NCBI GenBank assembly: GCA_030390025.1
Contig: CM059431.1
Coordinates: 145,020,001-145,084,000 of the forward strand
Length of the DNA: 64,000 bases
Direction: 5' to 3'
From: Squalus acanthias
Lineage: Eukaryota
The notes beneath the pieces were generated by a model that worked only from the letters and a program-made list of their open reading frames with translations, had not been told where the DNA came from and did no database searches. Numbering within the stretch: position 1 is the first letter of the stretch; every line of letters starts with the position of its first letter. Shown piece after piece: positions 12,821-64,000 of the stretch. Position numbers and translations under genes: made by a program.

Positions 12821-12859
12821 TTTCTCATTTATAATCTGCCCTTCAGCGACATCATCACC

Positions 12860-13920: not shown

Positions 13921-14229
13921 GAAAGTCTTGGAAAGGCGAGGTAATCCACTGAGAATCCCATCATTAAAGGATTTGTTCAAGGTGAGAGTCTAACAAGCTT
14001 TTGGGTGCCGCTTGATTTCAGACAAAGGGCTTGACAATTGATGCTGCAATTTGACTGTAGATTCACTGGTATATAAAGCTAGCCCATACCTCACCTGCGA
14101 ATACGTGATGCTTTTATGTACAGGGATTTTTGTCTTGTATTCATACCATGCTGTACGTGAGATGGTGTGCATCACTCTGCGAGGTGAACGAATATACAGT
14201 GAGATTTACATAGTATCTAAATCCCTGTC

Positions 14230-15245
14230 TACCTCATCTGAAAGTGTTTGATTGAACAGTGTCGAGGTAACTTTAATCTGTATGGGTCCCGTGCTGTTCC
14301 TCACCCGTGAGTGTTTTCTGGGACAGTGTCGAGGGAGCATTATTCTGTATCTAGCCCGTGCTGCAACTGCCATGGGAGTGTAAGATGGAAATTTTTTGAG
14401 TAACCTTTACTCTATAGTTAACCCAGAATGTACCTAACGTGGGCGTGTTTGATGGGACAGTGCTGACTGAACTTTAGTCTGTACCTAACTCGTACTATAC
14501 CTGACCTGGGAGTGTTCGAACTCACCGACTATGCTGCACGTGAGATGGTGTGCTTAATTGATCGTGTCAGGTGAGCTGTACGTTGCATTGGCCACAAGCT
14601 GTACCTGAGATGTCAGTACTTGCGAACCACTATAGAGTGAGAATTATACTGTATCTAACCCTGTCTACTTGCAATTCGACTTTTTAATTGGCAGTGTAGA
14701 GGGAGCTATTCTCCTTAACTAACCCAAGCTGTACCTGCGTTGGAGTGTTGATGGGACAGTGTCCAGGGAGCTTTACTTTTTATCTAATCCGTGCTGTACC
14801 TTTCATGTGAGAGTTTGTTGGAACAGCGTCAAGGGAGCTTTATTCTGTATCTGACCCGTGCTTTTCCTGACCTGGGAGTGTTTCTGGGAATTTGTAAAAG
14901 GACCTTTACTCGGTATTTAATATATACTGTGCCACACCTATTTGTGTTTGATGGGACAGTTTAGAGAGAGATTTACACGATATCTAATCCGTGTTGTAGC
15001 TGACCTGGGCGGGTTTGATGGGGCAGTGTAGAGGGAGCTTTACGCAGTATCTAGCCCGTGCTAGATCTGACGTGGGAGTGTTTGATGGGACATTTTAAAG
15101 TGTGCTCTACAGTGTATCTAACCCATGACGTACATGATTTGGTAGTGGTTGATGGGACAGTGTAGATGTAGTTTTACTCTGCATGTATCTCTTGCCGAAC
15201 TGAACTGCGAGTGTTTGATGGGTCAGTGTAGACGGAGCTTTATCT
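14230..15245. repeat. Diverged array of the 67-bp satellite (gggacagtgtagagggagctttactctgtatctaacccgtgctgtacctgccctgggagtgtttgat)
   Basis: Repeated gtttgatgggacagtg and gagctttactctgtatctaacc motifs; same unit as at 21950-22410. Confidence 0.9.
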
Positions 15246-15964
15246 ATTATCGCCCATGATTTCCACTTCAATTATTGCTCCAATGGCCCCACACACTCAT
15301 AGCCCTGATGATCCCCACAATGTGCCTCTGACGCCTCTTCCTGTTACAGGGAATAGACTGGTTTTAGAACACAGAGGTGCTTGTTATATCTTCATTCAAG
15401 CACCAATGCTTCAAACTGCATTTCACTGCCAAGGCAGGAGCGAGACACACTGCCGGATTTATGCGAGGGAGCCTTTGGCGCGCATAAATCAAAACAGGAA
15501 CACAAGAGCCAGTGAATAGTGGGTATTCATATTTGGAGATGTGAGGAGAATGCGTAAGGGGCATTTATGCGCGGTTCTGCTCCCTGCCTGGTATATGAGT
15601 ACATGTATACGGATTTTGAAACGGGACTAAATGTTCAACAATTGTTCATCCCCAGTGAGACTGCGCACCAGGAGCAGAGCATAGTCATGTGATCCTGTGA
15701 CACTTCGACTGGGCGGAGCTCCGGCTGCTTTGTGACATTGTTACTGGCTGCTGTGTGATTGGCGCCTGGCTCCTTTGTGATGTCACATGTTGACATTTTC
15801 CTCCCCTGGTTACGCACCGTCAGTGGTGAGTTACTGTGGGCGGAGCTGGAGTTGGCATCAGATATTGTGAGTGAGTACAGCCCCTATAAATAGGGGCAAA
15901 GAAAAAAACGAACAATTTAATAATAAAGTGAGTAATTCAACCAAATGTCATTAATTGTAATGTT

Positions 15965-27630: not shown

Positions 27631-27746
27631 ATGCGCAGTGCCGATGTTCAGTTCCATTGACTGCAACAGAATGGTACATCAGGTGCTGCGTTTAACGGAG
27701 ACCGATCCAATTCCGTCCGCTTTGAACCACCGCCCGAGACGAATAG

Positions 27747-28825
27747 TGACTGTTTAATTAGAAACAGTGAGCAGGGGAAGTTAGGGGAACACGGTAACTG
27801 TTTAATTAAAAACAGAGAACAGGGGAAGTAATGGGAACACGGTAACTGTTTAATTAGAAACAGTGAACAGGCGAAATAAGGGGAACACAGTAACTGTTTA
27901 ATTAGAAAGAGAGAACAGGGGAAGTAAGGGGAACACAGTAACTGTTTAATTAGAAAGAGAGAACAGGGGAAGTAAGGGGAACACAGTAACTGTTTAATTA
28001 GAAACAGAGAACAGGGGAAGTAAGGGGAACACGGTAACTGTTTAATTAGAAAGACAGAACAGGGGAAGTAAGGGGGACACAGTAACTGTTTAATTAGAAA
28101 CAGAGAACAGGGGAAGTAAGGGGAACACGGTAACTGTTTAATTAGAAACAGAGAACAGGTGAACTTTGCGGAACACAGTAACTGTTTAATTAGAAAGAGT
28201 GAACAGGGGAAGTTAGGGGAACACGGTAACTGTTTAATTAGAAACAGAGAACAGGGGAAGTAAGGGGAACACGGTAACTGTATAATTAGAAACAGAGAAT
28301 AGGGGAAGTAAGGGGAACACAGTAACTGTTTAATTAGGAACAGTGAACAGGGGAAGTTAGGGGAACACGGTAACTGTTTAATTAGAAACAGAGAACTGGG
28401 GAAGTTAAGGGAACACAGTAACTGTTTAATTTAAAACAGAGAACAGGGGAAGTAAGGTGAACATGGTAACTGTTTAATTAGAAACAGAGAATAGGGGAAG
28501 TAAGGGGAACACGGTAACTGTTTAATTAGAAACAGAGAACAGGGGAAGTAAGGGGAACACGGTAACTGTTTAATTAGAAACAGAGAACAGGGGAAATAAG
28601 GGGAACACAGTAACTGTTTAATTAGAAACAGAGAACAGGGGAAGCAAGGCGAACACGGTAACTGTTTAGTTAGAGATAGCAGACAGGACGATTATGGAGA
28701 ACACAACAACTGTTTAAATAGAAATAGAGGACTGGGAAGTTTAGCGGTAAACAGTAAATGTTTATTTGGAAATAGAGAACAGGAGAAGAAAGAGGAACAC
28801 GGCAACTTTTCAATTAGAAATAGAG
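27747..28825. repeat. 48-bp minisatellite (taactgtttaattagaaacagagaacaggggaagtaaggggaacacgg), ~22 copies
   Basis: Starts at 27795, 27843, 27891 and onward; degenerates at the right end. Confidence 0.97.
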
Positions 28826-28834
28826 GACAGAAGT

Positions 28835-31255
28835 ATGGGTCTTCAAATATCCTAATATAGACTAGGATTGTAATCGTGTAAAGGGCAGAGACGGGAACGA
28901 ATTTCTGAAGTGTGTTCAGGAGAACTTTCTTAATTAGTATGCTTCCAGCCCAACGAGGAAGGGGACATTGCTAAATCTGGTTCTGGGGGTGAGGTGAGTC
29001 AAGTGGAGCAATGTCTGTAGGGGAACATTTAGGGAGCAGTGATCATAGAATCATAAGGTTAGATTAGATATAGAAAAGTAAAGGGAGCAATCTAGAGTAA
29101 AAATACTTATTTGGAGGTAGGCCAATTTCAGTGGGTTGAGAACTGATCTGGCCCGGGTAAATTGGAATCAAACATTGGCAGGCAAAACTGTAATTGAACA
29201 AGGGGCTGCCTTTAAAGAGGAGATGGTTTGGGTACTGTCGTGGTACTTTCCCACAAGGGGGAACGGTAGCGCAACCAAAGCCAGAGCTCCCTGGATGATG
29301 AAAGAGATAGAGAATAAGATGAAGCCAAAAAAGGGGGAGTATGACTGATGTCTGGTTGAGAATAAAAGTGAGAACGAGGCTGAAGATATAAAGTTCAGAG
29401 GAGAAGTGAAAAAGTAAATAAGAGGGGCAAAGACAGAGTATGAGAATAGACTGGCAGCTAACATAAAATGGAATCCAAAAGTCTTATATAGGCATATAAA
29501 TAATAAACCGGTAGTAAGAGGAGGGGTGGGGCTGATTAGGGATCAAAAGGAGGAACTACACATGGAAGCAGAGGGCATGGCTGAGGTACTAAATTAATAC
29601 TTTGCATCTGTCATTACCAAGGAAGAAATGCTGCCAAAGTCATAGCGAAAGGGGAGGTAGATGAGATACTGGATGGAATAAAAATTGCTAAAGAGGCGGT
29701 AGTAAAATGGCTGGCAGAACATAAAGTAGATAAGTCACCTGGACGGGATGGGATGCATCCTAGGATACTGAGGGAGGTAATGGTGGAAATTGCGGAGGTA
29801 CTGGCCATAATCTTCCAATCCTCTTTAGATGCAAGGGTGATGCCAGAGGAAAGGAGAATTGCAAATGTTACACCTTGATCCAAAAAAGGCTGGAAGGATA
29901 AACCCAGCAAATACAGACCAGCCAGTTTAAACCCGATAGTGGGGAAGCTTTTAGAAACGATAATCCGGAACATAAGTAACAGTAACTTGGACAAGTGTGG
30001 ATTAACTAAGGAAAGCCAGCACGGATTTGTCAAAGGCAAATCGTGTTTAAATAAATTGATTAGTTTTTTGATGAGGTAACAGAGAGGGTTGATGAGGGCA
30101 ATGCGGTTGATGTGGTTTACATGGACTTCCAAAAGGCGTTTGATAAATTGCCAGATAATAGGATTTCCAGAAAAGTTGAAGCCCATGGAATAAAAGGGAC
30201 AGTGGCAGCATGGTACGAAATTGGCTAAGTGACAGTACACAGTGAGTAGTGGTGAACGGTTGTTTTTCAGACTGGTGGAAAGTATGCAGTGGTGCTCCCC
30301 AGGGGCCGGTACCAGGACCACTGCTTTACTTGATATATATTAATGACTTGGACTTGGGTATACAGGGCACAATTCCAAAATTTCAGATGACACAAAACTT
30401 GGAAGTATAGTGAACAGTGATAGGATAGTGATAGACTTCAAGAAGACATAGACAGGCTGAGGGAATCGGTGGACACCTGGCAGATGAAATTTAACGCAGA
30501 AACGTGCGAATGATTCATTTCGGTAGGAAGAATGAAAAGAGGCAATATAAACTAAAGGGTACAATTCTAAAGGGGTGCATGAACAGAGCGACCTGGGGGT
30601 ATATGTGCACAAATCGTTGAAGGTGGCAGGGTAGGTTGAGAATGCAGGATCCTGGGCTTCATAAATAGAGGCACAGAGTAGAAAAGCACGGAAGTTATGA
30701 TGAACCTTTACAAAACACTATTTCGGTCCCAACTGCAGGATTGTGCGCAATTCATGGCACCGCACTTTAGGAAGGATGTGAAGACCTTAGTGAGGATGCA
30801 GAAAAGATTTACAAGAATGGTTCCAGGTATGAGGGACTTCAGTTACATGGATAGACTGGAGAAGCTGGGGTTGTTCTCCTTAGAGCAGAGAAGTTTGAGA
30901 GGAGATTGATAGAGGTGTTGAAAATCATGAGGTGTATAGTCTGAGTAATAGCGGGAAACTGTTCCCATTGGCGGAAGCGTCCAGAACCAGAGGGCACAGC
31001 TTTAAGGTGATTGGCAGAAGAACCAAAGACGACAACAAAATTATGCAACGAGTGTTTATGGTCTGGAAGGCCCCGCCTGAAAGGGTGATAGAGGGAGATT
31101 CAATTGTGGCTTTCAAAATGGAATTGGAAAAGTACGTGAAGGAAGAAATATCAGGGCTACGGTGACAAGGAAGGGGATTGGATCTAGTTGCAGTTCTCTT
31201 GCAGGCTGGACGGGCCGACTGGCCTCATTATATGCGTGTAAATTTCTATGATTTT
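28835..31255 (+). mobile_element. Degenerate CR1 ORF2 (EN C-terminal part, RT, 3' UTR)
   Basis: gagcagtgatcat (SDH), atggacttccaaaaggcgtttgataaa (MDFQKAFDK), ORFs 30697-30909 and 30932-31165; tail tttctatgatttt. Confidence 0.92.
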
Positions 31256-31260
31256 ATTAT

Positions 31261-31540
31261 TGTCCTTTGCAATGGAATAGCACTTTACAATGGAGTAGAA
31301 CTTTGCAATATAAGAGTACTTTACAATGGAATAGCACTTTGCAATATAATAGTCCTTTGCAATGGAATAGCACTTTGCAATATAATAGTCCTTTGCAATG
31401 GAATAGCACTTTGCAATGGACAAGTCCTTTGCAATGGAATAGCACTTTGCAATATAATAGTCCTTTGCAATGGAAGAGCACTTTGCAATATAATAGTTCT
31501 TTGCAATGGAATAGCACATTGCAATATAATTGCGCTTTGC
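31261..31540. repeat. 36-bp minisatellite of two related 18-mers (gtcctttgcaatggaata / gcactttgcaatataata), ~8 copies
   Basis: Directly visible. Confidence 0.95.
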
Positions 31541-32610
31541 GGCAGACTGTGATTTTAAATGGGCGCCACTTGTGTTGCAGGATGGGCTCCCGCCCCGCTG
31601 CTTTGTGCCATTGTCTGGAGCCGCTCACAGGCTGTGCTGCTGCTCACACATACTCAGGCAGGCAGCACATGGTGCAGGAAGGAAGGAAGGAAGGAATGGT
31701 GGCTGCAGATCGCCAGCTCGGCTCCTGTATGTGAGTAGTGAGTGTGGAGATCAGGACCACAAGGGGCTGGGGGATTGGAGGGGGTGAAAATGCATGTAGG
31801 GGGTGATTGACGCCCCAGGAGATGAGCATGGAGGGAGGGTGAAAAGAAGCAAATACAATAAAGAATAAAGAATAATAATAATAACTTATGTACTTTACTT
31901 CTGCAAACGAAATGTCTGTCTGTCTGTGATTTGAGTGGAGTGGAATAAAATGAATGGAAAGATCCCACAGCAGCTTTTGCTCTGAAAACACTCCACAAAC
32001 ATTAGCCAATAAATCCGAGTCCAGAAAAACATCAAATGTATTATTGTGAAAATAATAATAAAATAAATATAACATATATATATTTGTTTTTACAAAAGTC
32101 TTGTCTTGTCTTGGTTGGGTTGGGAATTAAAGCGAGAGTAAGGTCACATAGCAGGATATGCTCTGACACTTCTGACAAACATTCCCCGATAAAGTCCAGC
32201 CCAGAAAAAAATCATATGGCTTGGGGTATATATGTAGCTTTGAGTTTTACAAGTCTTGAAAGAAAGGCAAAGTAAGATCCCACAGCTGTGCGGTCTTGAA
32301 TTAAATCAGTATAATCTAATGGTGTATACTTCCTGCTTTTTTCAGACATGAGATGCAGTACCAATGCACACGGCAGATAACTTGAATACAGACAAGCCCT
32401 GCATACACAGCAGCTTTTGCTGTCACTCTCTCTCTCTCACTCAAACACAGGTCAGCCTGCAAAATTGCCACACAACACTGTCAGCAATGAAAGCAAGTTG
32501 ATGTTCTCTAATTGCTCTGCTGTGTTTGGCAGTTTAAAAGCAAAAAAACAATTGTCAGTATCTTATCTTTTCATTTTGTGGCCTACAGAATTAAGCTTTC
32601 TATTCTGCAT

Positions 32611-32861
32611 CAAAAGCAAAATACTGACGATGCTGGAAATCTGAAATTAAAACAGAAAATGCTTGAAATACTCAGCAGGCCAGGCAGCATCTGTGGAGAG
32701 AGAGAGAGAAACAGAGTTAATGTTTCAGCTCGATGACCTTTCGTGAGATTCTGGCAAGGTTCTGACGACAGGTCATTGAACTGAAATGTTAACTCTGTTT
32801 GTCTCTCTCTCCACAGATGCTGCCTGACCTGCTGAGTATTTCCAGCATTTGCTGTTTTGAG
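32611..32861. mobile_element. Palindromic Penelope-terminus-derived mini-element with two hammerhead-like motifs and 13-bp TSD (copy 1)
   Basis: Arms ~32649-32750 and ~32759-32858 are reverse complements and match the termini at 41127-41235 and 61605-61705; flanks ttctattctgcat (32598-32610) and ttctattctgcct (32862-32874). Confidence 0.85.
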
Positions 32862-33187
32862 TTCTATTCTGCCTGTTGTCTTGATTTCATGTGTCTCTCT
32901 CATTGCCTACCTGCCTTGTCTTGTTTTGAGTGGAGTGGAATAAAAAGAATGCAAAGATCCCAGAGCAGCTTTTACTGTCAGGCAGTCCACAAAGACATTT
33001 TTCAGTATCTCACTGACTGACTGTCTGTCTTGAAGTGAAGTGAAGTGAAATAAAGTGCAATAAAGTGATACACAGCAGCATTACATGTGGAACAGGCAAG
33101 AATGAAATCAATAGGGTTTAATACAACAACAGCAGATAATAAGAAAGCAGACCACATCTCGCACAAACACCAGCTTTTGCTCTCTCC

Positions 33188-33223
<36 letters not shown>

Positions 33224-35385
33224 GACCCTGGCCAGCCTGCAGAGGGATGACTGCCGTGTTGGAAAATTAAAACCAAAAATACTCTTTTCTGTACCGTATC
33301 ATTTCACTTTGTGGCCTACAGAAACAGGCTTTCTATTCTGCATCTGCCTTTTGATTTCATGTCTCGCCCTTGTCACTGGCTGTCTGTCGGTCTGTCTCTC
33401 ACTCACACACTCTCTCTCCCATCCACATTGAACAAAACCTTACAGTGACATTACTCACAGACTCACACAAACTCTGCAATTTGCAGAAAAATAGACATCC
33501 ACTCACATACAGACTCACTCACACAGACACTGCAATTTGCAGAAACACTCACTCATACATCCATTTTGAAAGGGGTGCAGCCCGGGAGTGTTAATTTTTG
33601 ATGATGTCCCTTCCTGGCTGTGTGGCCATGTTTGATGAGGGCAATCCAACAGGAAGAATTGAAGCCGAGGCCCCAGAAATCCGGGTCCCTGAGAGGAAAT
33701 GAAAGCCCAGAGGGTGAAAGGAAGGAAATAAAATCAGGAATAAATAATAATATATATACTTCGCTTTTATAAAGGAAATGGCTGCCTGTCTGTCACTTGA
33801 GTGGACTGGTATAAAATGAAGGAAATATCCCAGAGCAGCTTTTACTGTCGGACAGTCCACAAATACATTTTTCAGTATCTCACTGACTGACTACCTGTCT
33901 TGAAATGAAGTGAAATAAAGTGCAATGAAATGATACACAGCAGCATTACATGTGGAGCAGGCCAGAAGGAAATCAATAGGGTTTAATACAACAACAGCAG
34001 GTAATAAGACACCAGACAGACACAAACACGAGCTTCTGCCCACTCTCTCTCTCTCACACACACTCCCAGCCTGGCCAGCTTGCAGAGGGATGACTGCCGC
34101 ATTGGAAGATTAAAACCAAAAAGACACTTTACAGTATCTTATCTTTTCACTTTGTGGCCGACAGAAACAGGCTTTCTATTCTGCAACTTGCCTTTTGATT
34201 TCATGTCTCTCTCACTCTCACGGACTGTTTGTCTCTCTGTCACTCACACAGTCTCCCTCCCACCCACATTGAATTAAAATTTACAGTAACGTGACACACA
34301 CACTCACACAGACGCTGCAATTTTAAGACTCACAGACACCCACGCACATACAGACACACTCACACAGACTCTGCAATTTGCAGAAACACAGACACACACT
34401 CATATACATGCACACTCAGACAGACACTGCAATTTGCAGAAACTCACACTCACACACACATCCATTTTGAAAGGGGTGCAGCCTGGAACTGTCTATTTTT
34501 GATGATGTCCTTTCCTGGCACTGCGGCCATGTTTGATGAGGACAAGCCAACAGGAAGATGTGAAGCCAACGCCGTAGAAATCCGGGTCCCCAAGAGGAAA
34601 TGAACGACCGGGAGTGTGAAAAGAAGGAAATACAATCAGGGATAAATAATAATATATCTACTTTACTTTTGTTAACTAAATGTCTGCCTGTCTGTGATTT
34701 GCGTGGAAAGGAATAAAATGAATGGAATGATCCCACAGCAGATTTTGCTCTGAAAACACCCCAAGCCCATTCCCCAATAAACGCCAGTCCCGAAAAACAT
34801 GAAATGGATTATGCTGAAAATACTTTTAAAAATCAATAATATATATACTTTGTTTTTACAAAAACTTGACTTGGTTTGGTTGGCTTGGGCTTAATGGTAG
34901 AGTAAGATCCCACCACAGGATATGCTCTGAAACACCCCACAAAAACTCCACCATAAAGTCCAGTCCAGAAAAAATCAATTGGCTTGAATTATATATGTAG
35001 CTTTGATTTTTACAAAAGTCTTGAAATAAAGGCAAAGTTAGATCCCACAGCATTGCAGTCTGGAATTAATTCAGTATGATCTAATGGTGTATCCTTTCTG
35101 TTTTTTTCAGACATGAGATGCAATATCAATGCACACAGCAGGTAACTTGAACTCAGTCAAGCCCTATATATACACCCGCATTTGCTGTCTCTCTCTCTCT
35201 CTCACACATACACACACACACACAGGCCAGCCTGCAAAATTGCCACACAACACTCTCAGCAATTAAAGAAAGTTAATTTCTCTCATTGCTCTGCTGTGTT
35301 CGGCAGTTTAAAAGCAAAAATACACTTTTCAGTATCTTATCTTTTCATTTTGCGGACCTACAGATACAGGCTTTTTATTCTGCAT

Positions 35386-35629
35386 CAACAGCAAAATACT
35401 GCTGATGCTGGAAATGGGAATAAAAACTGAAAATGCTGGAAATACTCAGCAGGTGAGGCAGCATCTGTGGAGAGAGAGAGAAACAGAGTTAACGTTTCAG
35501 CTCGATTACCTTTCGTCAGATTCTGTCAAGGTTCTGAGGAAAGGTCATCGACCTGAAACATTAACTCTGTTTCTCTCTCCGCAGATGCTGCCTGACCTGC
35601 TGAGTATTTCCAGCATTTTCTGTTTTGAT
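35386..35629. mobile_element. Palindromic Penelope-terminus-derived mini-element (copy 2)
   Basis: Same inverted arms; flanks ttttattctgcat (35373-35385) and ttctattctgcat (35630-35642). Confidence 0.85.
35530..35566 (+). ncRNA. Minimal type I hammerhead ribozyme motif
   Basis: ggtt-CTGAGGA-a-aggtc-atc-gacct-GAAA-catt-aact: core boxes, 5-bp stem II, stem I ggtt/aact; palindromic ACGT decayed to ACAT. Confidence 0.65.
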
Positions 35630-35987
35630 TTCTATTCTGCATGTTGTCTTGATTTCATGTGTCTCTCTCGCTGCCTGCCTGTCTGTCTGTCTGTCTTGTC
35701 TTGATTTGTGAGGAGGGAAATTAGAAGAATGCAAAGATCCCACATCAGCTTTTTACTGTCAGACCTACTTCATAGGAGACCGAACGAGGCCTCGTCCAGA
35801 GGGGACCGACCGAGGCCTCCTCCAGAGGGGACTGACCGAAATCTCCCTTAGAGGGGGAGAAGGTGGGATGTACTTTAGAGAAACGTTTATTTAATATATT
35901 AAAACAATGAATCCAGTTATTGAAAAAGTCGAGGAGACCAGGCGTGAGCTGAAGTAAGCGGTGGAGTTTTATTAACACAACACAGGG

Positions 35988-36298: not shown

Positions 36299-36862
36299 GA
36301 CACTTGTTACAGAGTCTGACTCCTCACTGGGAGAGACACACACTGTACACAGGGACACTTGTTACAGAGTCTGACTCCTCACTGGGAGAGACACATACTG
36401 TACACAGGGACACTTGTTACAGAGTCTGACTCCTCACTGGGAGAGACACATACTGTACACAGGGACACTTGTTACAGAGTCTGACTCCTCACTGGGAGAG
36501 ACACACACTGTACACAGGGACACTTGTTACAGAGTCTGACTCCTCACTGGGAGAGACACACACTGTACACAGGGACACTTGTTACAGAGTCTGACTCCTC
36601 ACTGGGAGAGACACACACTGTACACAGGGACACTTGTTACAGAGTCTGACTCCTCACTGGGAGAGACACACACTGTACACAGGGACACTTGTTACAGAGT
36701 CTGACTCCTCACTGGGAGAGACACACACTGTACACAGGGACACTTGTTACAGAGTCTGACTCCTCACTGGGAGAGACACACACTGTACACAGGGACACTT
36801 GTTACAGAGTCTGACTCCTCACTGGGAGAGACACACACTGTACACAGGGACACTTGTTACAG
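36299..36862. repeat. Near-perfect 55-bp minisatellite (gacacttgttacagagtctgactcctcactgggagagacacacactgtacacagg), ~10 copies
   Basis: Starts at 36299, 36354, 36409 ... 36849. Confidence 0.98.
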
Positions 36863-37230
36863 TGTACGACTCCACACTGGGTGACTCCCAGGAACACTGA
36901 GTGCAATTGTCAGTGTCCCACTGCAGCACAGACTGAGATCCACCCTGGTCTCTTCCTGTGTGTTCATTTCCCCAGTGACCCCATTGGGGAACATTCAGCC
37001 CCGGATATCCTGCAGAATCAGCGCTCTGACGCCGGGCGGATGAGTCTCCTGACCCTGTGGCTGGGCGTCTGACCTCACAATGGGAGATGACGCGCGCTCA
37101 GCTCGAGCTGGAAACCGTTAAAGGGGCCGTCAGTATTTAAACCCGGAGCGCGGCCGCTTAAAGGGGAGGAACAAAAAGTCGGCTAAAAATGCTCATATAA
37201 TGAGACCAGTGACGTCATCAATTGAAATCT

Positions 37231-38804
37231 TCACACATTCACACTCAGTTCGCGTCTTGTTCCCTGAAGTGACATCAGCTGATTCTTTCCGGTTGAACTG
37301 AACTGATTCCAGCCCAGCCTGAAACAGATTAAAGATTAAACAGGAAATAAACGGATTGAACAACAGTATAAATGACAGGGAGACTGGGATTAATATTTCA
37401 ATAATCATTACAGACAAATATTACCCATAAAATTGACTGAGTCCCATTTATATTTTAATTATTACATTAAACATTAACACAAACACTCACCAGATCCGCT
37501 CCAGACTTCTGCAGGTCAGTACGAGGAGACGGAAAGCGGTCTGTGAAGGAGTTTGATTCCAGGTTCACATCCGTCAGTGACCGGATTGTACTGAGAGCGG
37601 AGGCGAGATCCTCGCCACAAGAATCTGTGAGACCGACAGCATTCAGCCTGGGGATCATTTAGCGAAATAACAGGAATCAGGGTAAATCCCCAGAGTTTAT
37701 CAATAACACTATTACTGATAATAATAATGTTCAGTGTCAGACATCCAGCTATTATAAGCACAATCTCATACAGTCTGGTACTTACACCAGTTTCTGTATT
37801 TTACACTCCGGGTTCCTCAGAGCCGCAGACACTAGTTTCACTCCTGAATCTCCCAGTTTATTATAACCCAGGTTCAGATCGATCAGTGAGCGGTTTGTGC
37901 TGAGAGCGGAGGCGAGATTCTCGGTACAATAATCTGTGAGCCCGACATCAGGCAACCTGCGGATCAGAGAGAGAAATCACAGGAATCAGAGTAAATCTCC
38001 AGTGTTTATTAATAACACTATTACTAATACTAATAATCATGTACAGTGTAAGACATACACTTATTATAAACACAATCTCACACAGTCTGGTACTTACACC
38101 AGTGCCTGTATTTTACAGTCCGGGTTCCTCAGAGCCGCAGACAGCAGTTTCACTCCTGAATCTCCCAGTTTATTTTTACCCAGGTTCAGAACCGTCAGCG
38201 ACCGGTTTGTAGTGAGAGCGGAGGCGAGATCCCCGGCACAAGAATCTGAAAGACCGTTACCCCACAGCCTGGGATCAGAGAGAGAAATACAGGAATCAGA
38301 GTAAATTCCCCAAGGTTTATTAATAACACTATTACTGATACTAATAATAATGTACATTGTTAGACACCCAGTTATTATAAACACAATCTCACAGTCTGTT
38401 ACTTACTGCAGCTTCTGTATTTTACAGTCCGGGTTTCTCAGAGCCGCAGACATTAGTTTCACTCCTGAATCTCCCAGTTTATTATTATTCAGGTTCAGAA
38501 CCGTCAGAGACCGGTTTGTACTGAGAGCGGAGGCGAGATTCCCGGCACAAGAATCTGTGAGACCGACAGACCATGCACTGAGGATCAGAGAGAGAAATAA
38601 CAGGACTCAGAGTAAATCCCAGTGTTAATTAATAACACAACTACTGATCCTAATAATAATGTCCAGTGTCAGACATCCAGTTATCATAAACACAATTTCA
38701 CACAGTCTGGTACTTACTCCAGTTTCTGTATTTTACAGTCCGGGTTCCTCAGAGCCGCAGACAGTAGTTTCACTCCTGAATCTCCCAGTTTATTGTAACT
38801 CAGT
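37231..38804 (-). pseudogene. Six LRR exons of the NLR (87, 171, 171, 171, 157 and 88 coding nt)
   Basis: [28 protein letters not shown] and GLTDSCAxDLASALSTNRSLTxLNL repeats; phase-2 introns; last exon LGWNQFSSTGKNQLMSLQGTRRELSVNV*. Confidence 0.93.
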
Positions 38805-38943
38805 CTAAACACAGAGAGTGAGAAACAAACTGAGTCAAAGCACGGATCTGATATATGTTTCTCTCTCGGATATTACAGCAATCACTGAAAGTAGTTCAGG
38901 AAATATGTAAACCGGTTTCCCCCCGCGATTTCCCTCCCTGTGC

Positions 38944-39250
38944 GGGTCGGGTGCGGCCGGGGTCGGTGGCGGGTCGGGTGCGGCCGGGGTCTGTGGCGGG
39001 TCGGGTGCGGCCGAGGTCGGTGGCGTGTCGGGTGCGGCCGGGGTCGATGGCCGGTCGGGTGCGGCCGGGTTCGGTGGCGGGTCGGGTGCGGCCGAGGTCG
39101 GTGGCGTGTCGGGTGCGGCCGGGGTCGGTGGCGTGTCGGGTGCGGCCGGGGTCGGTGGCGGGTCGGGTGCGGCCGGGGTCGGTGGCGTGTCGGGTGCGGC
39201 CTGGGTCGGTGGCGGGTCGGGTGCGGCCGGGGTCGGTGGCGGGTCGCGGC
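38944..39250. repeat. GC-rich 27-bp minisatellite (gggtcgggtgcggccggggtcggtggc), ~11 copies
   Basis: Directly visible; period 27. Confidence 0.97.
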
Positions 39251-39289
39251 CTCGCTCTGGAGAATTGGAGGAAGCGGGTTTGATGAAGC

Positions 39290-40815
39290 CATTTGATGAC
39301 GCACACATTTAGTTTGACATTTGTGCTGTCAGTGATATAAAGTATTGAGGTGCTGCAAACACTGACAACCTCTGCACAGATTAGTGCGCCTGCACCCAGG
39401 CTCTCCCATAACTCCCACCATATGCTTATGGAGGGAGCCACTGCACGCAGGGAGGTTCTCTTCACTTCCAATTGTTGGATGAGACAAACGCAGCCTCGTT
39501 GCACATTCCAGAGTTGGGCTCAAGCAGGAATGTCGTCAGGAGGACCAGGCTGCAGTGGTGCAAACCTTTCAATGATCTCAGTAGATCACGAAACGTTACT
39601 GCAAAGCCACACTCAACCTCATCCTGCTGTGCCACTCATCACATCCCCTTCACACTGCCTTCCCTACCCTACACCTGCATAGTTTTACTCACACCAAATT
39701 TACTGGCACCTCCACCAATCCCTCTCTATCTATATAATCACATCCCCATCACACTAACCATCCCTCACACTCACCCGCATCCTAGTTCAATCATACCAAC
39801 TACCAACACACAATTGTAGGAAATTGTGTGTTTTAGCCAATGTTCATGTGAAGTTTCTGTTAATGTGCTGTAAATCATTGAAATCTTTATTTTAAACACT
39901 TTCCGTTCTTCTACAGGGTTGTGTTCACCTTTGGATGTGGCTTAGTGAGTTGCAGTGAATGGGGAGACATAACGGTACCCCCCGCAATGCTGATGAGTGC
40001 GACAGGAATGGTTTGGGCATTGTAGGGATGCTTTATCTTTTTGCTGTGGGCTGGTGGCAACCTGGCGCTAGATGTGGCATCCAGGGCGTGCAGCGTCAAG
40101 TGTATAAAATCTGGCCATGGTGAGGCCATCTCTGGCGTCCCGGTCAGCAATGTCAAGGGGTGTTGATGCCCTCTGTGCTGTGCAGCATCAGAAGTTGCGG
40201 AACAGGTTGGTGGTGTTGTTGGTGCTGCTGGTGTGCCTGGTACTGCTGGTGTTAGGGCTGATGGTGGTGGGACTCTGAGGCCTAAGTGAGGCATTATAAA
40301 CCATACCCATGCTGATGTAATAGATGGCAGTTGAACTTGAGATGACAGAAGCCATCTGTCAATGGTGAGAGTGTTTGCTCCAATGAGGGGTCACAGGATA
40401 GAGAGTTTGCTCCAAACACTTGCAACCTGCATAAAGCTCAATCTGTCTTCCAAATGCAGTAAGCAAGTGCTTCTGTGCTTGGAAAGTGAACAGCTGTGAG
40501 ATGGGATCTTTTATAGCACATTTCCAGCTGTCAAGTAATGAGATGATTCCATGGCCATTCAACTCCCGCCCTGCTTATCTGACGTGAGCCCCGAGCAGCG
40601 TGGACTACGTGGGCGACCTGATAAACTCTGAAGTTGAGATAAAATAGTTGTCAATATTCTGTTAACAAAGGTCATAATGAACTGAATTGCCTCCCGCGCC
40701 GCTGCATGTCGGATCTGCTCAGCGCTGACAGACCCGACATTTGGGAAAGGCGGGTTGCCGGGGTTAGACAGCGGGGTCCCGATCCGCTGGGAAAAATTCC
40801 AGTTTCCACCCGTCT
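39290..40815 (+). mobile_element. Degenerate PIF/Harbinger-type DNA transposon relic with Myb/SANT-like coding remnant
   Basis: PAPRLSH...ARREVLF (ORF 39350) and RRTRLQWCKPFNDL (ORF 39472) resemble the Myb/SANT trihelix partner protein; GC-rich end at 40690-40815. Confidence 0.55.
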
Positions 40816-41126
40816 GTGTGACGCCTTTAAATGTCCCTCAGTCCGGTCTCATTCCCTGATGATCAGAATTACCATCCTGCAATTCAGTGACCTGCTCCGT
40901 CAAGTTTGGAGAAATTTGTCTCAATTCTGCTGTTCCTTAAATCCCGGATTTTATGGGAATGGGGCGATTTTCCCACAATTAATGCTAAAGCGGTTATTCC
41001 CTGTACGTTATACTCTGTGCATTATAATAATCTGTATAGTATCTCTGTGTGAGTTATAATGTGGAAAGCAAACTGCTGCTGTAAAATCCGTCCCCCAGGA
41101 TTTTATATAACAAGGAGAATTTATGC

Positions 41127-42440
41127 TGAAATAAAAACAGAAAATGCTGGAAATACCCAGCAGGTCAGGCAGCATCTATAGAGAGAGAAAAACAGAGTTA
41201 ATGTTTCAGGTCGAGGACCCTTCGTCAGAACTGGAAAAAGTTACAGATGTAACAGATTTTTAAGCAAGTATCGGGGCAGGGAAAGGTGAAGGGAGCGGAG
41301 GAAAGAACAAAAGGGAAGGTCTGTGATAGGGTGGAAGACAGGAGAGTTTAAAAGACAAAAGGGATGATGGTGCAATCAAAAGGAGATGGTAATGGGACAA
41401 GTTATGCAGCAAAAGATGAATCTAGATGATGTGTGAATGTCAATGGCAGAATCATCAACAGCCATCATGCGAGAGCAAAAAAGGGAAAAGGAAAAACAGT
41501 TATGAGAAAAATAATATAGGGGCCGAGTTTATCGTGTGAAATTGTTGAACTCGATGCTGAGTCCAGAAGGCTGTAAAGGGCCTAATTGAAAGACGAGGCA
41601 CTGTTCCTCGATCTAATGTTGTACTTCGTTAGAAGAGTGTAAGAGTCCGAGAACGGAGAGATCAGAGTGGGAGTGGTTCAGAGTATTAAAGTGCTAGGCG
41701 ACCAGAAGCACGAGGTCACAATTCCGGACTGAGTGGAGGTGTTCCGCAAAGCGATCACCCAATCTGCATGTGGTTTCCGCAATGTAGAGGAGACCGCATC
41801 GTGAGCAGCGAATACAGTATACTAAATTGCAAGAAGTAAAAGTAAAGCGCTGTTTTACCTGGAAGGAATGTTTGGAATCCTGGCCAATGGGGAGGGAACA
41901 TGTAAAAGGGCAGGTGTTGCATCTCATGCGCTTGCATGGGAAGTTGCCATGGGAAGGGGAAGGGGTGTAGGGGGTGATTGAGGAGTGGACCAGGCTGTCG
42001 TGCAGGGAGTGGTCCCTTCGGAATGCTGAAAGGGGAGGTGAGGGGAAGATGTGTTTGGTAGTGGGATCACGCTGAACGTGGCGGAAATGGCGGAGGATGA
42101 TCCGTTGAATGCGGTGGCTGGTGGGGTGAAAGGTGTGGACAAGGGGAACCCTATCGTGGTTCCGGGAGGATGGGGAAGGGGTGAGAGCAGAAGTGCGGGA
42201 AATAGAATGGACACGGTCAAGAGCCATGTCAACTACGGTAGAGGGGAATCCTCGTTTGAGGGAAAAGGAAGACATGTCGGAAGCACTAGTATGGAACGTG
42301 GCATCGTCAGAGCAGATGCGGCAGAGACGGAACAAAATGGGAGAACGGACCAGCATCCTTACAGGAATCAGCGTGGGAGGAAGTGTATTCCAGGTAGCTG
42401 TCGGAGTCAGAGGGCTTATAGTAAATGTTTGTCAATAGCA
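41127..42440 (-). mobile_element. 5'-truncated Penelope-like element (RT C-terminus + GIY-YIG endonuclease + terminal repeat)
   Basis: ORF 41694-42356: RLCRICSD, PLVHTFHP, CKRMRCNTC, NLVYCIRCSRCGLLYIAET...RFAEH. Confidence 0.92.
41196..41232 (-). ncRNA. Minimal hammerhead ribozyme motif in Penelope terminus
   Basis: agtt-CTGACGA-a-gggtc-ctc-gacct-GAAA-catt-aact on the minus strand. Confidence 0.65.
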
Positions 42441-43318
42441 GCAATAGAGTTTATTCTGTCCCGTTGCAAGTTTTAAAAGTCCCTGTACTCCTAGTTTATA
42501 GGGGAGGGGAGTCTCACACTTTATTCCCCATTACACTGGCACTTCATTTATTTCAGGTGGAACTGGCCCGACAGTTTTGGGGGAATTTTCGGAAGTTCCC
42601 TCCCCGAGTGGAGCCTCACACACAGGGGGCGGATTATGGGGAATTACCGGGTCACTGCCCCCGCTTTAACCAGGAGCCGCCCGCTGTGTGCGAGGCCCCA
42701 CCGCTAGCCGGTATGTGTCTGTACTCCAGGGCTAATATCCCTCCGGCAGATTTAAGATCCTGAATATCAATGTTTACTTCATGTTCACGACTTTGTATAG
42801 TTGTAAACATTTACAGCTGAAGAATTCCATGTTCCCCAATATTCCCAATCCAGAAAACTAACCCCTCGACAGGACAAACCCTGTACGGTATTGGAGTAAA
42901 TATCGAACTGTTAGTGATTTAAACTTGGGTTTCTCTCCTGTTTACAGTTGAAATGGTGGATGTGGAAAATATTTTAATTTAATTTTATCTTTACTGCCGG
43001 ATTATATTTTATGTTTATCTTCCGCTGTCCAGCATTATTAAATATGATTTATTGTAATTAAATTATCAGACTCTCAGTGACCTGTATTTGCTGAGCTGAT
43101 AAAGATTGTAAAATCCTGACTTGTTCAATTGGATTCCTTTTAGATTCTCCAGTCCTTAGGGAATTGCTAACCGACCCTCTTATTATTGGTCAAAGTTGTG
43201 TTGAATCTGCTTCTCTCTGGTTTAACTGAACTGTTTGTTTACCTTCATTACGGATCAACAACACAATCCTTGACTGTTCTACAATTCACCCAACAGTTAG
43301 AGACAAATAAAGAGTTAC

Positions 43319-45053
43319 CTCAACGCTCGGCATTTGTGCAGTACGGATCCCAGACGCAAGAATCCTTCACACTGAATGTAGCAGTTCTCCAGATCGAGGT
43401 ATTTTACTGTATCACAGAGTGCAATGACATGAGACAGGACCGCACAGTCAATTGGGGTCAATCTCAATCCACGAAATGTAAGAGATTTCACAGATCTCAC
43501 TGTTTTCCGAGCCAGTGCTTTATTCTGAGACCCAAACAGATAGTGGAATGTGTTCAGGAGGTTCCTTTTACCAGTTTCACTCTCTGTGTTTTCAATCTGT
43601 CCTTCCAGCTTCTCCTTCAATCAATCAATCACTCGGCAAATGGTTTTATAAAGAAATCGACCCAGAAACTCCTCCAGGGGCCGAGCTGCCTGTGGGGAGG
43701 AGAGACCAGCAACAAAACGGAGAAATATCTCAAATCGCCCATCTTCCTTGCTGTGGGATTCTGTGAGGCGTTTCTGGATGTCCCCGGGATCTGGAGTCAG
43801 GAATTGTGCGAGTGCGGCTACAAACTCTTGGATGGTGAGGTGCGGGAATGTGTACACCACACTCTGGACAGAATCATCTCTCTCCAAAAGTTCCTTCATG
43901 AACCCAGACAGGAACTGGGAAGGTTGCAGATTGTATTTGTTCAAATCTCCATTCCAAAATACAATCTTCTTCTCGGAGACTCCTGTGAAGGCCATCTCAC
44001 CAAGTTTCAGTAACGCATGGGGGCTTTCAATCGCTCGGCCATGGTTTTTCAGAATGTTGTAAATATAGTAGGAATATAGTTGGGTGATGGTCTTGGGAAC
44101 TCGCTGCTGATTCCTGTCTCTTTCTGTAAAGAAGGGACCCAGTGAGAGCCCGAGGATCCAGCAGTAGGAAGGGTTGTAGCACATGGTGTACAGCATCTCG
44201 TTCTCCTCCACGTGTTTGAAAGCAGCTGCTGCCACCGTCTGATCTTCAAAAAACTTGTTGAAATATTCCTTCCGTTCTTCACCAACAAATCCCAGGATTT
44301 CAGCCCAGACACTGATCTCAGCCTTTTCCAATAAATGTAATGCAGTGGGGCGGCTGATCACGAGCACTGAACATCCTGGGAGCAGCTTGTGCTGTATTAA
44401 ACTGTACATAATGTCAGACACTTCACACCAGCATTCGGGATCTGTGCACATGGACTGAGGTTCTGTATTTCTCCGATTGTCAGCAAAATCGATGCTGTCC
44501 TTGAATTCATCCAATCCATCGAATATAAACAACAATCGCTTCGGGTTCTTCCAGAGCTCTCCAAGAATTTTCCCAAAGTAAGGATACTGATCCAGTATCA
44601 GATTCCTCAGGTTTATTCTACAGTTAATAGCGTTCAAATCGCGGAATTTAAAGCTGAAAACAAATTGAAAGTGTGGGTATATTTTCCCAGTGGCCCAGTC
44701 ATGAATAATCTTTTGTACCATTGTTGTTTTTCCAATCCCCGCAACTTCGCTCACTGCTGCTGATCTCCCAGATTTGGATTTTCTCCGGGAAAATCTGCTC
44801 TGGAAGAATTGATCAGTTCGGATTTTTTCCAGCTCTCTCCGGAGATGTTTCTCTCTCCACTCATCATGGTCTCGGCCTCTTGCCAGCAGTTTATGTTCTA
44901 CAAGTGTCCGATCTCGAACAGTAGAAATGATCGTTAGCTCAGCCTATCGATCAACCAGCTGGAAAATCTTAACCTTATCCTGTATTAGGATGGTGTTCAC
45001 TCTCAATGTTTCAGTTTGTTCCCGGAGTATTTGCTTGTGTTTCTGTTGAACAT
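43319..45053 (-). pseudogene. Large NACHT exon of the NLR
   Basis: actgaag|atgttcaacag start (DVQQKHKQILREQTETLRVN); EVAGIGKTT (Walker A, first G lost), LLFIFDGLDE (Walker B), VLVISRP, FPHLTIQEFVAA; ends ttgag|gtaac. Confidence 0.95.
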
Positions 45054-45464
45054 CTTCAGTTAGAACAGACAGAAAGTGGTTTCAATTTTAGTTATATTGT
45101 CAAAGAAATCTCCGATGTACTGCTCTGCTTTTCAGTAAAATGTAACACGAACTATTTTTAAAGTTTAATCGTATACAGTAAGAAAGCCAAAACAGTTCAC
45201 GTGAATCTTGGTTGACAGGAAATTGCTGAGAGAAGTTTCAAATCTACATGGGACACTAATATTTACTTAACATGGCGAGCTGGGTGAAGGTGAAATGTTC
45301 CCTCTGATGGTGAATACTATCTGTCGCACAATGTACTGCAGACATCTCAGTACAAATCCACAGGTGATTCTGGTTATATGGCTGTAGCGGTTATAATGGA
45401 TAAATGATTGAACCCCCCACCCAGCAGAGCTGAACTTTTGTAAAAATAGCAAATCGGGAATTGG

Positions 45465-46156
45465 ACAGTACTGAGAGGGACAGGCTCACAATGTACTGAT
45501 TGGGCAGCATTGAGAGAGGGACAGGCTCACAATGTACTGATTGGGCAGCACTGAGAGAGGGACAAGCTCACAATGTACTGATTGGGCAGCACTGAGAGAG
45601 GGACAGGCTCACAATGTACTGATTGGGCAGCACTGAGAGAGGGACAAGCTCACAATGTACTGATTGGGCAGCACTGAGAGAGGGACAGGCTCACAATGTA
45701 CTGATTGGGCAGCACTGAGAGAGGGACAGACACACAATGTACTGATTGGGCAGCACTGAGAGAGGGACAGGCTCACAATGTACTGATTGGGCAGCACTGA
45801 GAGAGGGACAGACTCACAATGTACTGATTGGGCAGCACTGAGAGAGGGACAGGCTCACAATGTACTGATTGGGCAGCACTGAGAGAGGGACAGACTCACA
45901 ATGTACTGACTGGGCAGCACTGAGAGGGGGACAGGCTCACAATGTACTTATTGGACAGCACTGAGAGAGGGACAGGCTCACAATGTACTGATTGAGCAGC
46001 ACTGAGAGAGGGACAGGCTCACAATGTACTGATTGGGCAGCACTGAGAGGGGGACAGGCTCACATTGTACTGATTGGGCTGCACTCAGAGAGGGACACGC
46101 TCACAATGTACTGATTGGACAGCACTGAGAGAGGGACAGGCTGACAATGTACTGAT
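45465..46156. repeat. 41-bp minisatellite (gcactgagagagggacaggctcacaatgtactgattgggca), ~16-17 copies
   Basis: caatgtactg at 45489, 45530 and onward (period 41). Confidence 0.98.
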
Positions 46157-61599: not shown

Positions 61600-64000
61600 A
61601 ATAAAATGAAAGCAGAAAATGCTGGAAATGTCCAGCAGGTCAGGCAGTATCTGCAAAGAGAGAAACAGAGGTAACGTTTCAGGTCGATGACACTTCATCA
61701 GAACTTGAAAAGTTTAGATATGTAACAGGTTTTAGGCAAATAGAGAGGCAGGAAAAGGGGGAGGAGGGGAACGCATAAAAGGGAATATCTGTGATAGGAT
61801 GGAAGGGAGGAGAGATTAAAAGACAAAAGGGGAGATGGTGCAAGGCAAATGCAGATAGTAATGGGACAAATTAAGAAACAAAAGCTGACTTTATATGTGG
61901 TGTAAATGGCAAATCATCAACAGCTGCGACGTGAGAGACAAAAAAAAGGCAAGGAATTAAAAAAAAAGTGTCCAAGGTTAAAATCTGAAATTGTTGAACT
62001 CGATGTGGATTCCAGAAGGCTTAACGTGCCTCATCAAAAGATGAGGTGCTGTTCCTCGAGCTTACGTCGAGCTTCGTTGGAACAGTGTAAGAGGTCGAGT
62101 ACGGAGAGATCAGAGTAGGATTGTAGCGGAGAATTAAAGTGACCGGCGACCAGAAGCTCGCGGTCATGCTTACAGACTGAACAGAGGTGTTCCGCAAAGT
62201 GTTCATCCAATCAACGTTTGGTCTCTCCAAAGTAGAGGAGACGGCATCGTGAGCATCGAATACAGGATACTAAATTGCAAGAAGTAAAAGTAAATCGCTG
62301 TTTCTCCTGGAAGGAGTGTTTGGGCCCTGAACAGTCGGAAGGGAGGAGGTAAAAGGGCAGGTGTTGCATCTCCTCCGCTTGCACAGGAAGGTGCTGTGGG
62401 AAGGGGAAGGGGTATTGGTGTGATAGAGGAGTGTACCAGGGTGTCGCAGAGAGAGCGGTCCCTTCGAAATACTGAAAGGGGAGGGGAGGGGATGATGTAT
62501 TTCGTGGTGGGCTCACGCTGGAGGTGGTGGAAACGGTGGAGGATTATCCGTTGAATGTGAAGGTTGGTGTGGTGAAATGTGAGGACAAGGGGAACATTAT
62601 CGTGGTGCTGGGAGGGAGGGGAAGGGGTGAGATCAGAAGTGAGGGAAATAGAACGGACACGTTCAACGGCATTGTCAAACATGGTAGAGAGGAATCCAAG
62701 GTTGAGGAAAAAGGAAGACATGTCGGAAGCACTAGTATGGAAGGTGGCATCGTCAGAGCAGATGTTGCGTAGATGGTGAAACTGGGAGAATGCGATAGAG
62801 TCCTTCCAGGAAGCGGGCTGGCAATAATTGTAGTCCAGTTAGCTGTAGCAGTCAGTGGGCTTATAGAGAATGTTTGCCAATAGGCTATCCCCAGAAATAG
62901 AGTCAGAGAATTCGAGGAAGGGAAGGGAATAGTCGGAAATGGACCATGTGAAGGAGAGGGAAAGTTGGAAATTGGAAGCAAAGTGGTTAATTTTTTTAGT
63001 ACAGGGTGAGAGTAGGAATCGGCACCGATCCTGTCATCAATGTACCGGAAAAAGAGGTGAGGGAGGGGATCTGAGTAGGACTGGAACAAAGAATGTTCCA
63101 AAAATCCCACGAAAGGGCAGGCATACCTAGGGCCCATGCGGGTTCCCATAGGAACACCATTAATTTGGAGAAAGTGAGCGGTGTGAAAGGAGAAGTTGTT
63201 TAATGTGAGAACAAGTTCAGCTAGGCGGCGGAGGGTGGTGGTGGATGGGGGCTGGTTGGGCCTCTATTCAAGGAGGAAGCGGAGCACCTTCAGGCCATCC
63301 TGGTGCGGGATGGAGGTGTTGAGGGATTGGACTTCCATAGTGAAAAGGAGACGTTTGGTGCAAGGGAACTGGAAACTGTTAACGTGGCAGAGGGCGTCGG
63401 AAGAGTAAGGGATGTAGGTGGGAAGAGTCTGGACAAGGGGAGAAAATATTGTGTCGAGATAGGAAGAGATATGTTCTGTGGGGCAAGAACAGGCTGAAAT
63501 GATGGGTCTACCAAAGCAATCCTGTCTTTGTATCTTGAGAAGGAGGTAGAAGCGGGATGTACGTTGTTGGGGAACTATGAGATGGACAGCCATGGAGGGA
63601 AGATCTCCAGAGGAGATGATGTTAGTGACCATCTTGGAAACAATGGCTTGATGTTTGGTAGTGGGGTCATGGTCCAGACGGAGGTAGGAGGAGGTGTCGG
63701 AGAGTTGGTTTTCAGCCACCGCTAGTTAGAGGTCGGTTCATCAAACAACAACAGCGCCACCCTTGTCAGCAGGTTTAATGACAATGTTGGGGTTGGATCT
63801 GAGAGAATGGAGTGCTGCAAGTTCAGTGGGAGGTAGCTTAGAGTGAGTGAGAGGAGCAGAGAAATTGAGCTTGCTGAAGTCATGCCGGCAGTTAGCAATG
63901 AAAAGCTCCAGAGAGTGTAAAAGGGCAGAGGGAGCGATCCAGCTGGAATGAAAATTCTGAAAATGGGTAAAGGTTCCGTTGTGCGGGGGAAGACTCCTGG
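61600..64000 (-). mobile_element. Penelope-like element (degenerate RT + GIY-YIG), runs off the window
   Basis: ORFs 63264-63719 (GRPIISAC, LFTMEVQSLNTSIPH), 62544-63149 (MGTRMGPRYA, RYIDD), 62211-62516 (NLVSCIRCSRCRLLYFGETKR). Confidence 0.93.
61669..61705 (-). ncRNA. Minimal hammerhead ribozyme motif in Penelope terminus
   Basis: agtt-CTGATGA-agtgtc-atc-gacct-GAAA-cgtt-acct; retains palindromic ACGT; mismatches in stems I and II. Confidence 0.6.

What the first reader, a model, noticed from the sequence alone, without database searches (positions are those of the whole stretch)
32598..32874. Fold-back ~250-bp mini-element carrying back-to-back hammerhead motifs, with a 13-bp TSD and paralogous empty sites
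Seen: two ~100-bp arms in inverted orientation around a spacer of ~8 bp, each a copy of the Penelope terminus at 41127 and 61605. Each arm has a CTGAnGA-stem II-GAAA-(C/T)(G/A)TT-AACT motif reading outward, one per strand; the minus-strand motif in this copy has decayed to CTCACGA. The unit is flanked by ttctattctgcat/ttctattctgcct, and a second copy with the same TSD lies at 35373-35642. The paralogous B blocks show the uninterrupted site once (ttctattctgcatctgccttttgatttcatg at ~33331, similar at ~34174). Known: Penelope termini carry minimal hammerheads and often integrate with inverted ends. Inference: this is a protein-free, hairpin-forming non-autonomous unit with a ribozyme motif on either strand, either a retrozyme/MITE-like family or a one-off inverted truncation. 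The two local copies share one site, so they reflect one insertion plus duplication.
Basis: partly seen in the sequence, partly recalled or inferred. Interest (0 to 1): 0.72.

Follow-up and report, generated by a model that had tools for sequence, protein, structure and literature searches.

The report
Duplicated fold-back Penelope retroelement stub
This 250-base hairpin in a shark-type genome is two head-to-head copies of the end of a Penelope-like jumping gene, likely laid down in one insertion and then copied along with the surrounding DNA; it follows a known insertion pattern, and its damaged ribozyme motifs are predicted to be trapped in the hairpin.

Summary
The unit (32611-32861) is two inverted copies of a Penelope-like element (PLE) end, flanked by a 13-bp TSD. 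A second copy sits at the same site of a duplicated host block, and two paralogous blocks are empty. One correction: the arms are unequal, because only the left carries the ~32-bp PLE 'tail'. Inverted copy + one-sided tail + TSD is the published PLE insertion pattern, and opposite-strand minimal hammerhead pairs were reported in 2014. None of the four hammerheads is intact. The minus-strand stem I is broken in both copies, and folding buries every core in the upstream antisense arm. In public shark-type contigs, 73 different joints were found across the arms, so fold-backs recur with varied centres. However, 25-31 contigs per DNA run (of 10,656-15,393 laid) cross this unit's own spacer. I could not tell whether these are co-amplified host blocks or a mobile subfamily, because no genome was available. 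The scan has already reported many such stubs on other DNA of this and other genomes. Verdict: an ordinary PLE by-product, neither a retrozyme nor a MITE.

The parts
32598..32610 (+). Left copy of 13-bp target-site duplication, unit 1
32611..32642 (-). ~32-bp Penelope 'tail', present on the left arm only
   Evidence: the same sequence is the majority loose end beyond the tail-less terminus at 41126 in public contigs
32643..32747 (-). Left arm: Penelope end read on the minus strand, with a decayed minimal hammerhead (core CTCACGA at 32747-32741; stem I broken)
32748..32761 (.). 14-nt centre between the two hammerhead cores (inversion junction; its last 4 nt are the stem I 5' strand of the plus-strand motif)
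32762..32861 (+). Right arm: tail-less Penelope end with a minimal hammerhead core at 32762-32786 (stem II 4 of 5 pairs, helix III not palindromic)
32862..32874 (+). Right copy of TSD, unit 1 (first 3-4 nt also fit the element end)
35373..35642 (.). Unit 2 with TSDs (element 35386-35629): same insertion in the duplicated host block; 220 of 243 identical to unit 1
33331..33343 (+). Empty paralogous target site 1
34174..34186 (+). Empty paralogous target site 2
31833..35762 (+). Host array of four related non-coding blocks (filled, empty, empty, filled); blocks 1/4 85% and 2/3 86% identical
41127..42429 (-). Truncated, broken Penelope-like element (end of RT region, GIY-YIG region, hammerhead-bearing end without tail)
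61600..64000 (-). Longer broken Penelope-like element (RT and GIY-YIG remnants, hammerhead-bearing end without tail); RT-like sequence runs towards the window end

Best explanation
The unit is two head-to-head copies of a Penelope-like retroelement end inside a 13-bp target-site duplication, likely a dead by-product of one insertion that was later copied with its host block, and its hammerhead motifs are predicted not to cut. Shown: both arms are PLE ends; only one has the tail; the TSD and empty sites; one shared site; motif damage. Inferred mechanism: the RT-endonuclease of an autonomous PLE nicked both strands 13 nt apart and primed a cDNA from each nick. One cDNA began at the distal internal start site (arm with tail) and the other at the proximal one (arm without tail). 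Both stopped within a few bases upstream of the hammerhead core and were joined. Within this explanation I put two-ended priming at about 60%, snap-back self-priming at about 30%, and other routes at about 10%. Any read-through transcript meets the antisense arm before the ribozyme, so the core is predicted to be locked in a ~100-bp duplex on either strand.
For: Arms match two termini in the window that lead into RT + GIY-YIG remnants. The shark homologue P0001 (61% identical) carries RVT_1 and GIY-YIG. The layout equals the published PLE pattern: inverted 5'-truncated copy, one-sided 30-40-bp tail, 8-10-bp TSDs (PMC8557442; PMC3846280). A Poseidon protein nicks and extends both strands and starts RT at two internal sites that define the tail (PMC11167929). 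Opposite-strand minimal-hammerhead pairs 100-700 bp apart were reported and related to truncated PLEs (PMC4209133). One insertion then duplication: unit 1 vs 2 90.5% (220/243), adjacent flanks 89.6% (215/240); 6 columns shared only by the same arm of both copies, 0 by arms of one copy, 0 crosswise. Varied junctions: 73 joints across the arms, 15 shown, all different; 6 of the 15 resume within 3 nt upstream of the plus-strand core or at it. Folding: probability that core bases pair with the upstream arm is 0.88-0.90 and that stem II forms is 0.00, on 4 of 4 strand/copy combinations and also for the co-transcriptional prefix.
Against: Contigs do cross this unit's own spacer. The T>G variant at 35526 (the unit-1 state) alone is in 25, 31 and 27 contigs of runs X1, X2 and X8 (X8 is a different organism code), and the other spacer positions mostly agree with the window. 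That is what a fixed-junction family would give; I explain it by co-amplification of the host block but could not test that. The listed joints have short sides (19-26 letters) and were called at 80% likeness, and their left-arm ends are biased by private mismatches of unit 2. The single-arm PLE controls also fold poorly into the hammerhead in silico (stem II 0.18 and 0.02), and the anole ribozyme needs protein help, so folding alone cannot prove inactivity. The priming mechanism is not tested here.
Confidence: 0.8

Rival explanations
1. The fold-back, once formed, became a non-autonomous mini-element that PLE proteins copy as a whole, so it forms a family with a fixed centre at many independent sites.
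For: 25-31 contigs per DNA run with the spacer variant, in two organism codes, and 4 in a possible RNA run; spanning pieces differ from unit 2 at 7-16 letters in 81-105. PLE pLTRs can mobilise unrelated sequence in trans (PMC3846280).
Against: The only two copies whose flanks I could see share one site. The host block is itself a four-copy array next to an NLR gene, and a nearby flank (40950-41110) is also multi-copy in the same runs (summed depth 1,254-21,106 in X1), the same order as the spacer (about 16,000). Spacer depth is under 1% of arm depth, and 291-541 contigs per DNA run leave each arm into ordinary PLE sequence (depth is not a copy number). A 100-bp RNA duplex is a poor RT template (inference).
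Confidence: 0.13
2. It is a retrozyme-like unit whose two hammerheads cut both strands to give small linear or circular RNAs.
For: A core-like motif on each strand; 3 of 4 cores match CTGAnGA. Non-LTR retrozymes are PLE-derived and occur in a chondrichthyan (10.64898/2026.07.22.740005).
Against: Retrozymes are head-to-tail tandem repeats with same-strand hammerheads; this unit is head-to-head with one motif per strand. Single minimal hammerheads showed no cleavage in vitro. 0 of 4 motifs has core, stem I, stem II and palindromic helix III all intact, and all are predicted to be sequestered.
Confidence: 0.03
3. It is a MITE moved by a DNA transposase that recognises its inverted ends.
For: Short, non-coding, inverted arms, flanked by a TSD.
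Against: The termini are not inverted repeats, because the left end has 32 extra bases. The arms are retroelement ends and are joined at the centre.
Confidence: 0.02

Closest known systems
Complex insertions of endonuclease-bearing Penelope-like elements: inverted 5'-truncated pLTR, one-sided 30-40-bp tail, TSD (PMC8557442 passages; PMC3846280 passages)
   Same: Head-to-head inverted copies, tail on one end only, TSD, empty site at a paralogous or allelic locus.
   Different: Here both halves are cut down to ~100-140 bp with no ORF between; the TSD is 13 bp against 8-10 bp in the rotifer examples.
Minimal type I hammerheads of metazoan PLEs, including opposite-strand pairs 100-700 bp apart (PMC4209133, parts 1-2 of 4)
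   Same: [quoted passage not shown]
   Different: The cores are only 14 nt apart, and all four copies in the units are damaged.
Poseidon of Anolis carolinensis, PAc (PMC11167929, parts 1-2 of 4)
   Same: RT then GIY-YIG order, hammerhead in the pLTR, tail corresponding to two RT start sites, AT-rich target.
   Different: Clade placement of the shark element was not tested by a tree; that paper does not describe ORF-less fold-back stubs in the parts I read.
Non-LTR retrozymes (PMC7229834 passages; 10.64898/2026.07.22.740005 part 1 and passages)
   Same: Non-coding, PLE-related, type I hammerhead, a few hundred bp, long TSD.
   Different: Retrozymes are same-strand tandem repeats that yield circular RNA; this unit is an inverted pair with one damaged motif per strand.

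Membership tests
Truncated EN+ Penelope-like insertion | Sequence derived from the end of an element encoding RT followed by GIY-YIG endonuclease | tested here: met
   Pfam gave no direct hit on the window's own broken fragments, so the domain call comes through homologue P0001
Truncated EN+ Penelope-like insertion | Inverted 5'-truncated copy joined head to head | tested here: met
Truncated EN+ Penelope-like insertion | 30-40-bp tail on one end only | tested here: met
   ~32 bp on the left arm only; optional in the family (loose ends)
Truncated EN+ Penelope-like insertion | Target-site duplication with empty site | tested here: met
Truncated EN+ Penelope-like insertion | Placement in the Penelope/Poseidon clade by RT phylogeny | not tested
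   no tree built
Minimal PLE hammerhead | Core, extra nucleotide, helices I and II, palindromic 15.1-16.1 | tested here: inconclusive
   The architecture is recognisable, but each of the 4 unit copies fails at least one element; no Rfam hit
Minimal PLE hammerhead | Self-cleavage | not testable with these tools
   needs an in vitro assay
Non-LTR retrozyme | Head-to-tail tandem units with two or more same-strand hammerheads | tested here: not met
   definition
Non-LTR retrozyme | Circular RNA expression | not testable with these tools
   only contigs, no raw RNA reads
MITE | Terminal inverted repeats at both very ends | tested here: not met
   left end has 32 unpaired bases
Mobile non-autonomous family | Same internal junction at independent loci with different TSDs | tested here: inconclusive
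   the junction recurs in 25-31 contigs per DNA run, flanks not visible; 2 of 2 window copies share one site

The most novel reading that the evidence does not exclude
This centre marks a true fold-back mini-retroelement family of sharks: a ~250-nt hairpin RNA with an embedded hammerhead motif on each strand, copied whole by Penelope proteins into many independent sites and shared by at least two species.
Probability: 0.13. Interest if true: 0.55.

Novelty: new member of a known kind. Interest (0 to 1): 0.18.

Why it matters
As found, it matters little: it is one more footprint of how Penelope-like elements insert. It is a tidy example, because filled and empty paralogues fix the boundaries. 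Collections of such junctions could help settle an open point, namely how the inverted half is primed and why copies stop just before the hammerhead. If the shared centre proved mobile, it would be a hairpin-type non-autonomous partner of PLEs, unlike the tandem retrozymes in the papers I read.

Tried and rejected
No whole genome was held, so the genome-wide count of same-junction copies with different TSDs could not be run. Rfam at E<=10 gave no hammerhead family; the only hits on the units were weak miRNA-hairpin matches far below their gathering scores. Pattern scans: metagenome contigs gave 1 locus, L001, a GC-rich bacterial-looking coding stretch at a contig end, rejected as unrelated; viral contigs gave 0 for the exact centre; GTDB genomes gave 0. 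Pfam on the window's broken PLE fragments: 0 families for the 4 fragments among 18 proteins and for 5 of 5. Run search: no RNA holder listed; X14 is only guessed to be RNA, so nothing is claimed on expression. Origin of the centre: it scores best against the empty target site (P 0.03-0.14 against random window stretches, post hoc, uncorrected) and not significantly against the upstream PLE sequence (P 0.25-0.79); no match longer than 6 nt lies within 1.2 kb. This is inconclusive and not used. Arm-to-arm gene conversion: no columns shared only by the two arms of one copy. Earlier-findings look-ups by sequence and by nearby place were empty. Literature searches listed no paper on shark fold-back Penelope stubs; the library lacks most subscription papers and Repbase/Dfam entries, and I read no supplements, so this is not proof of absence.

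Full report
Observation. Unit 1 is 32611-32861, between a 13-bp duplication at 32598-32610 and 32862-32874 (12 of 13 identical). Unit 2 is 35386-35629, with the duplication at 35373-35385 and 35630-35642. The same target occurs once, uninterrupted, at 33331 and 34174 in two paralogous blocks. The hairpin is far beyond chance (z about -20 to -23 against 100 shuffles). A 12/13 flanking repeat arises in 0.4% of 200,000 random 250-bp spans of the window. Two details differ from the finding. The left arm is about 137 bp and carries about 32 bp that the ~104-bp right arm lacks, and the two cores are 14 nt apart.

Source of the arms. A blastn of both units against the window finds only each other and the two termini at about 41127 and 61600 (77-90% identity), apart from one 24-bp simple-repeat match. 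Those termini lead, on the minus strand, into broken reading frames with RT-like and GIY-YIG-like motifs. Pfam did not hit these fragments directly. A search of longer proteins returned 3 of 1,098 candidates, two of them shark proteins at 61% identity. P0001 and P0003 carry RVT_1 followed by GIY-YIG, and P0001 aligns to both window elements by tblastn. The arms are therefore ends of an endonuclease-bearing Penelope-like element in a cartilaginous-fish-type genome. I built no tree, so 'Poseidon-like' is a resemblance only. The terminus is very abundant: 22,545, 45,257 and 52,719 contigs were laid on an 801-bp stretch holding it in three runs. The tail is optional: the majority loose end at 41126 is the tail (516-822 contigs per DNA run), while loose ends at 41129-41130 show no such consensus.

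One insertion, then duplication. The units are 220 of 243 identical, their immediate flanks 215 of 240, and the host blocks 737 of 869. The two arms within a unit are 88% and 91% identical. Six alignment columns are shared only by the same arm of both units, none by the two arms of one unit and none crosswise. An earlier, stricter count gave 0 in both classes tested, because it required the other arm to be identical in both copies. The insertion thus came not long before the block was duplicated.

Hammerheads. The motif fits the published minimal type I hammerhead of metazoan PLEs (PMC4209133, parts 1-2 of 4 read), although Rfam finds no hammerhead in the window. Of the four copies in the units, three have an intact core and two have an intact 4-bp stem I. 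One has a full 5-bp stem II and one has the palindromic ACGT; none has all four. Both minus-strand copies share the broken stem I, so that defect predates the duplication. On either strand the antisense arm is transcribed first. Computed pairing of the core with that arm is 0.88-0.90 and of stem II 0.00, for whole units and for prefixes ending just past the cut site. Against over-reading this: single-arm controls also fold poorly (stem II 0.18 and 0.02), and the anole ribozyme cleaves only with protein present (PMC11167929). Single minimal motifs did not cleave in vitro.

Family or by-product. No genome was available, so I laid contigs of four public runs on the 120 bp around the centre of unit 2. 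The results go both ways. For a recurrent by-product: 73 joints were found across the arms, and the 15 shown are all different. Six of the 15 resume at 35531-35534, at or just before the plus-strand core, five at 35539-35542 and four further in. Between 291 and 541 contigs per DNA run leave each arm into ordinary PLE sequence, and summed depth over the spacer is under 1% of that over the arms (the tool warns that depth is not copy number). On the single-arm reference, 3 of 15 shown joints (152 in all) change strand, one at 41229, next to the core. These joints have short sides and were called at 80% likeness. For a shared junction: contigs do cross this very spacer. The T>G variant at 35526 alone is in 25 of 10,656, 31 of 13,808, 27 of 15,393 and 4 of 698 contigs laid, including run X8 of another organism code, and other spacer positions mostly agree with the window. 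The contigs are too short to show flanks. I favour co-amplification with the host block. The block is already a four-copy array beside an NLR gene (NACHT exon 43621-44943; LRR-type exons 37.5-38.8 kb, read by eye), and a nearby flank is multi-copy at a similar depth in the same runs. This remains untested and is the basis of the novel case.

Mechanism (inferred). A Poseidon protein nicks and extends both strands of AT-rich DNA and starts reverse transcription at two internal sites whose spacing is the tail (PMC11167929, parts 1-2 of 4). Two nicks 13 nt apart, each priming a short cDNA from one of the two start sites, would give this anatomy: TSD, tailed arm, junction, tail-less inverted arm, TSD. 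Snap-back self-priming, proposed for palindromic junctions in rotifer PLEs (PMC3846280 passages), is the main alternative. Earlier scan notes suggest that short arms run off a capped RNA start just before the hammerhead. The clustering is compatible with that, but I did not test a start site. The origin of the 14-nt centre is unresolved.

Comparison and verdict. Inverted 5'-truncated copies with a one-sided 30-40-bp tail are a standard PLE layout (PMC8557442 passages; PMC3846280 passages; PMC8969392 passages). Opposite-strand minimal-hammerhead pairs were noted in 2014. Retrozymes are defined as same-strand tandem units (PMC7229834 passages; bioRxiv 10.64898/2026.07.22.740005 part 1 and passages), which this is not. 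Six literature searches listed no paper on such stubs in sharks, but repeat databases and supplements were not seen. The scan itself already holds many similar findings on other DNA of this genome (8 shown) and 26 findings in at least 7 genomes; these are unchecked notes and are not counted as support. The finding is real and ordinary: a new member of a known kind, interest 0.18.

Noticed in passing
window 37467-44943, minus strand: NLR-type gene: NACHT/WH/HD2 exon at 43621-44943 and LRR-type exons in ~309-bp tandem exon-intron repeats at 37.5-38.8 kb. The Penelope copy at 41127-42429 lies between them.
   Followed up: partly
window 31833-35762: Array of four related ~0.9-1.1-kb non-coding blocks with internal sub-repeats and splice-site-like stretches; the insertion site follows a pyrimidine tract ending in CAG. 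Nature of the block unknown.
   Followed up: no
window 32748-32761 and 35520-35533: The 14-nt centre begins with the same 6 nt that lie inside the TSD and aligns 9 of 10 with empty site 2; this may be a target-templated filler, but significance is marginal (P 0.03-0.14).
   Followed up: partly
window 9503-10546, minus strand: Intronless-looking 347-aa ORF with a rhodopsin-family 7TM domain.
   Followed up: no
window 41127 and about 61600: Both longer Penelope copies end without the tail and have no inverted partner next to them; each hammerhead has at least one defect.
   Followed up: partly
window 36299-36884, 45460-46156, 27745-28839, 31265-31540, 38935-39250: Several minisatellites (55-bp, ~41-bp, ~48-bp, 18/36-bp and a GC-rich ~20-bp unit).
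   Followed up: no
window 35467-35586, run X1 loose ends: 56-69 contigs per run (X1, X2) leave the arm at 35579 with a different downstream consensus, suggesting a second Penelope subfamily that shares the hammerhead region.
   Followed up: no
L001 601-657: Bacterial-looking contig end with a short inverted repeat that matched the search pattern; unrelated, possibly an assembly fold-back.
   Followed up: no
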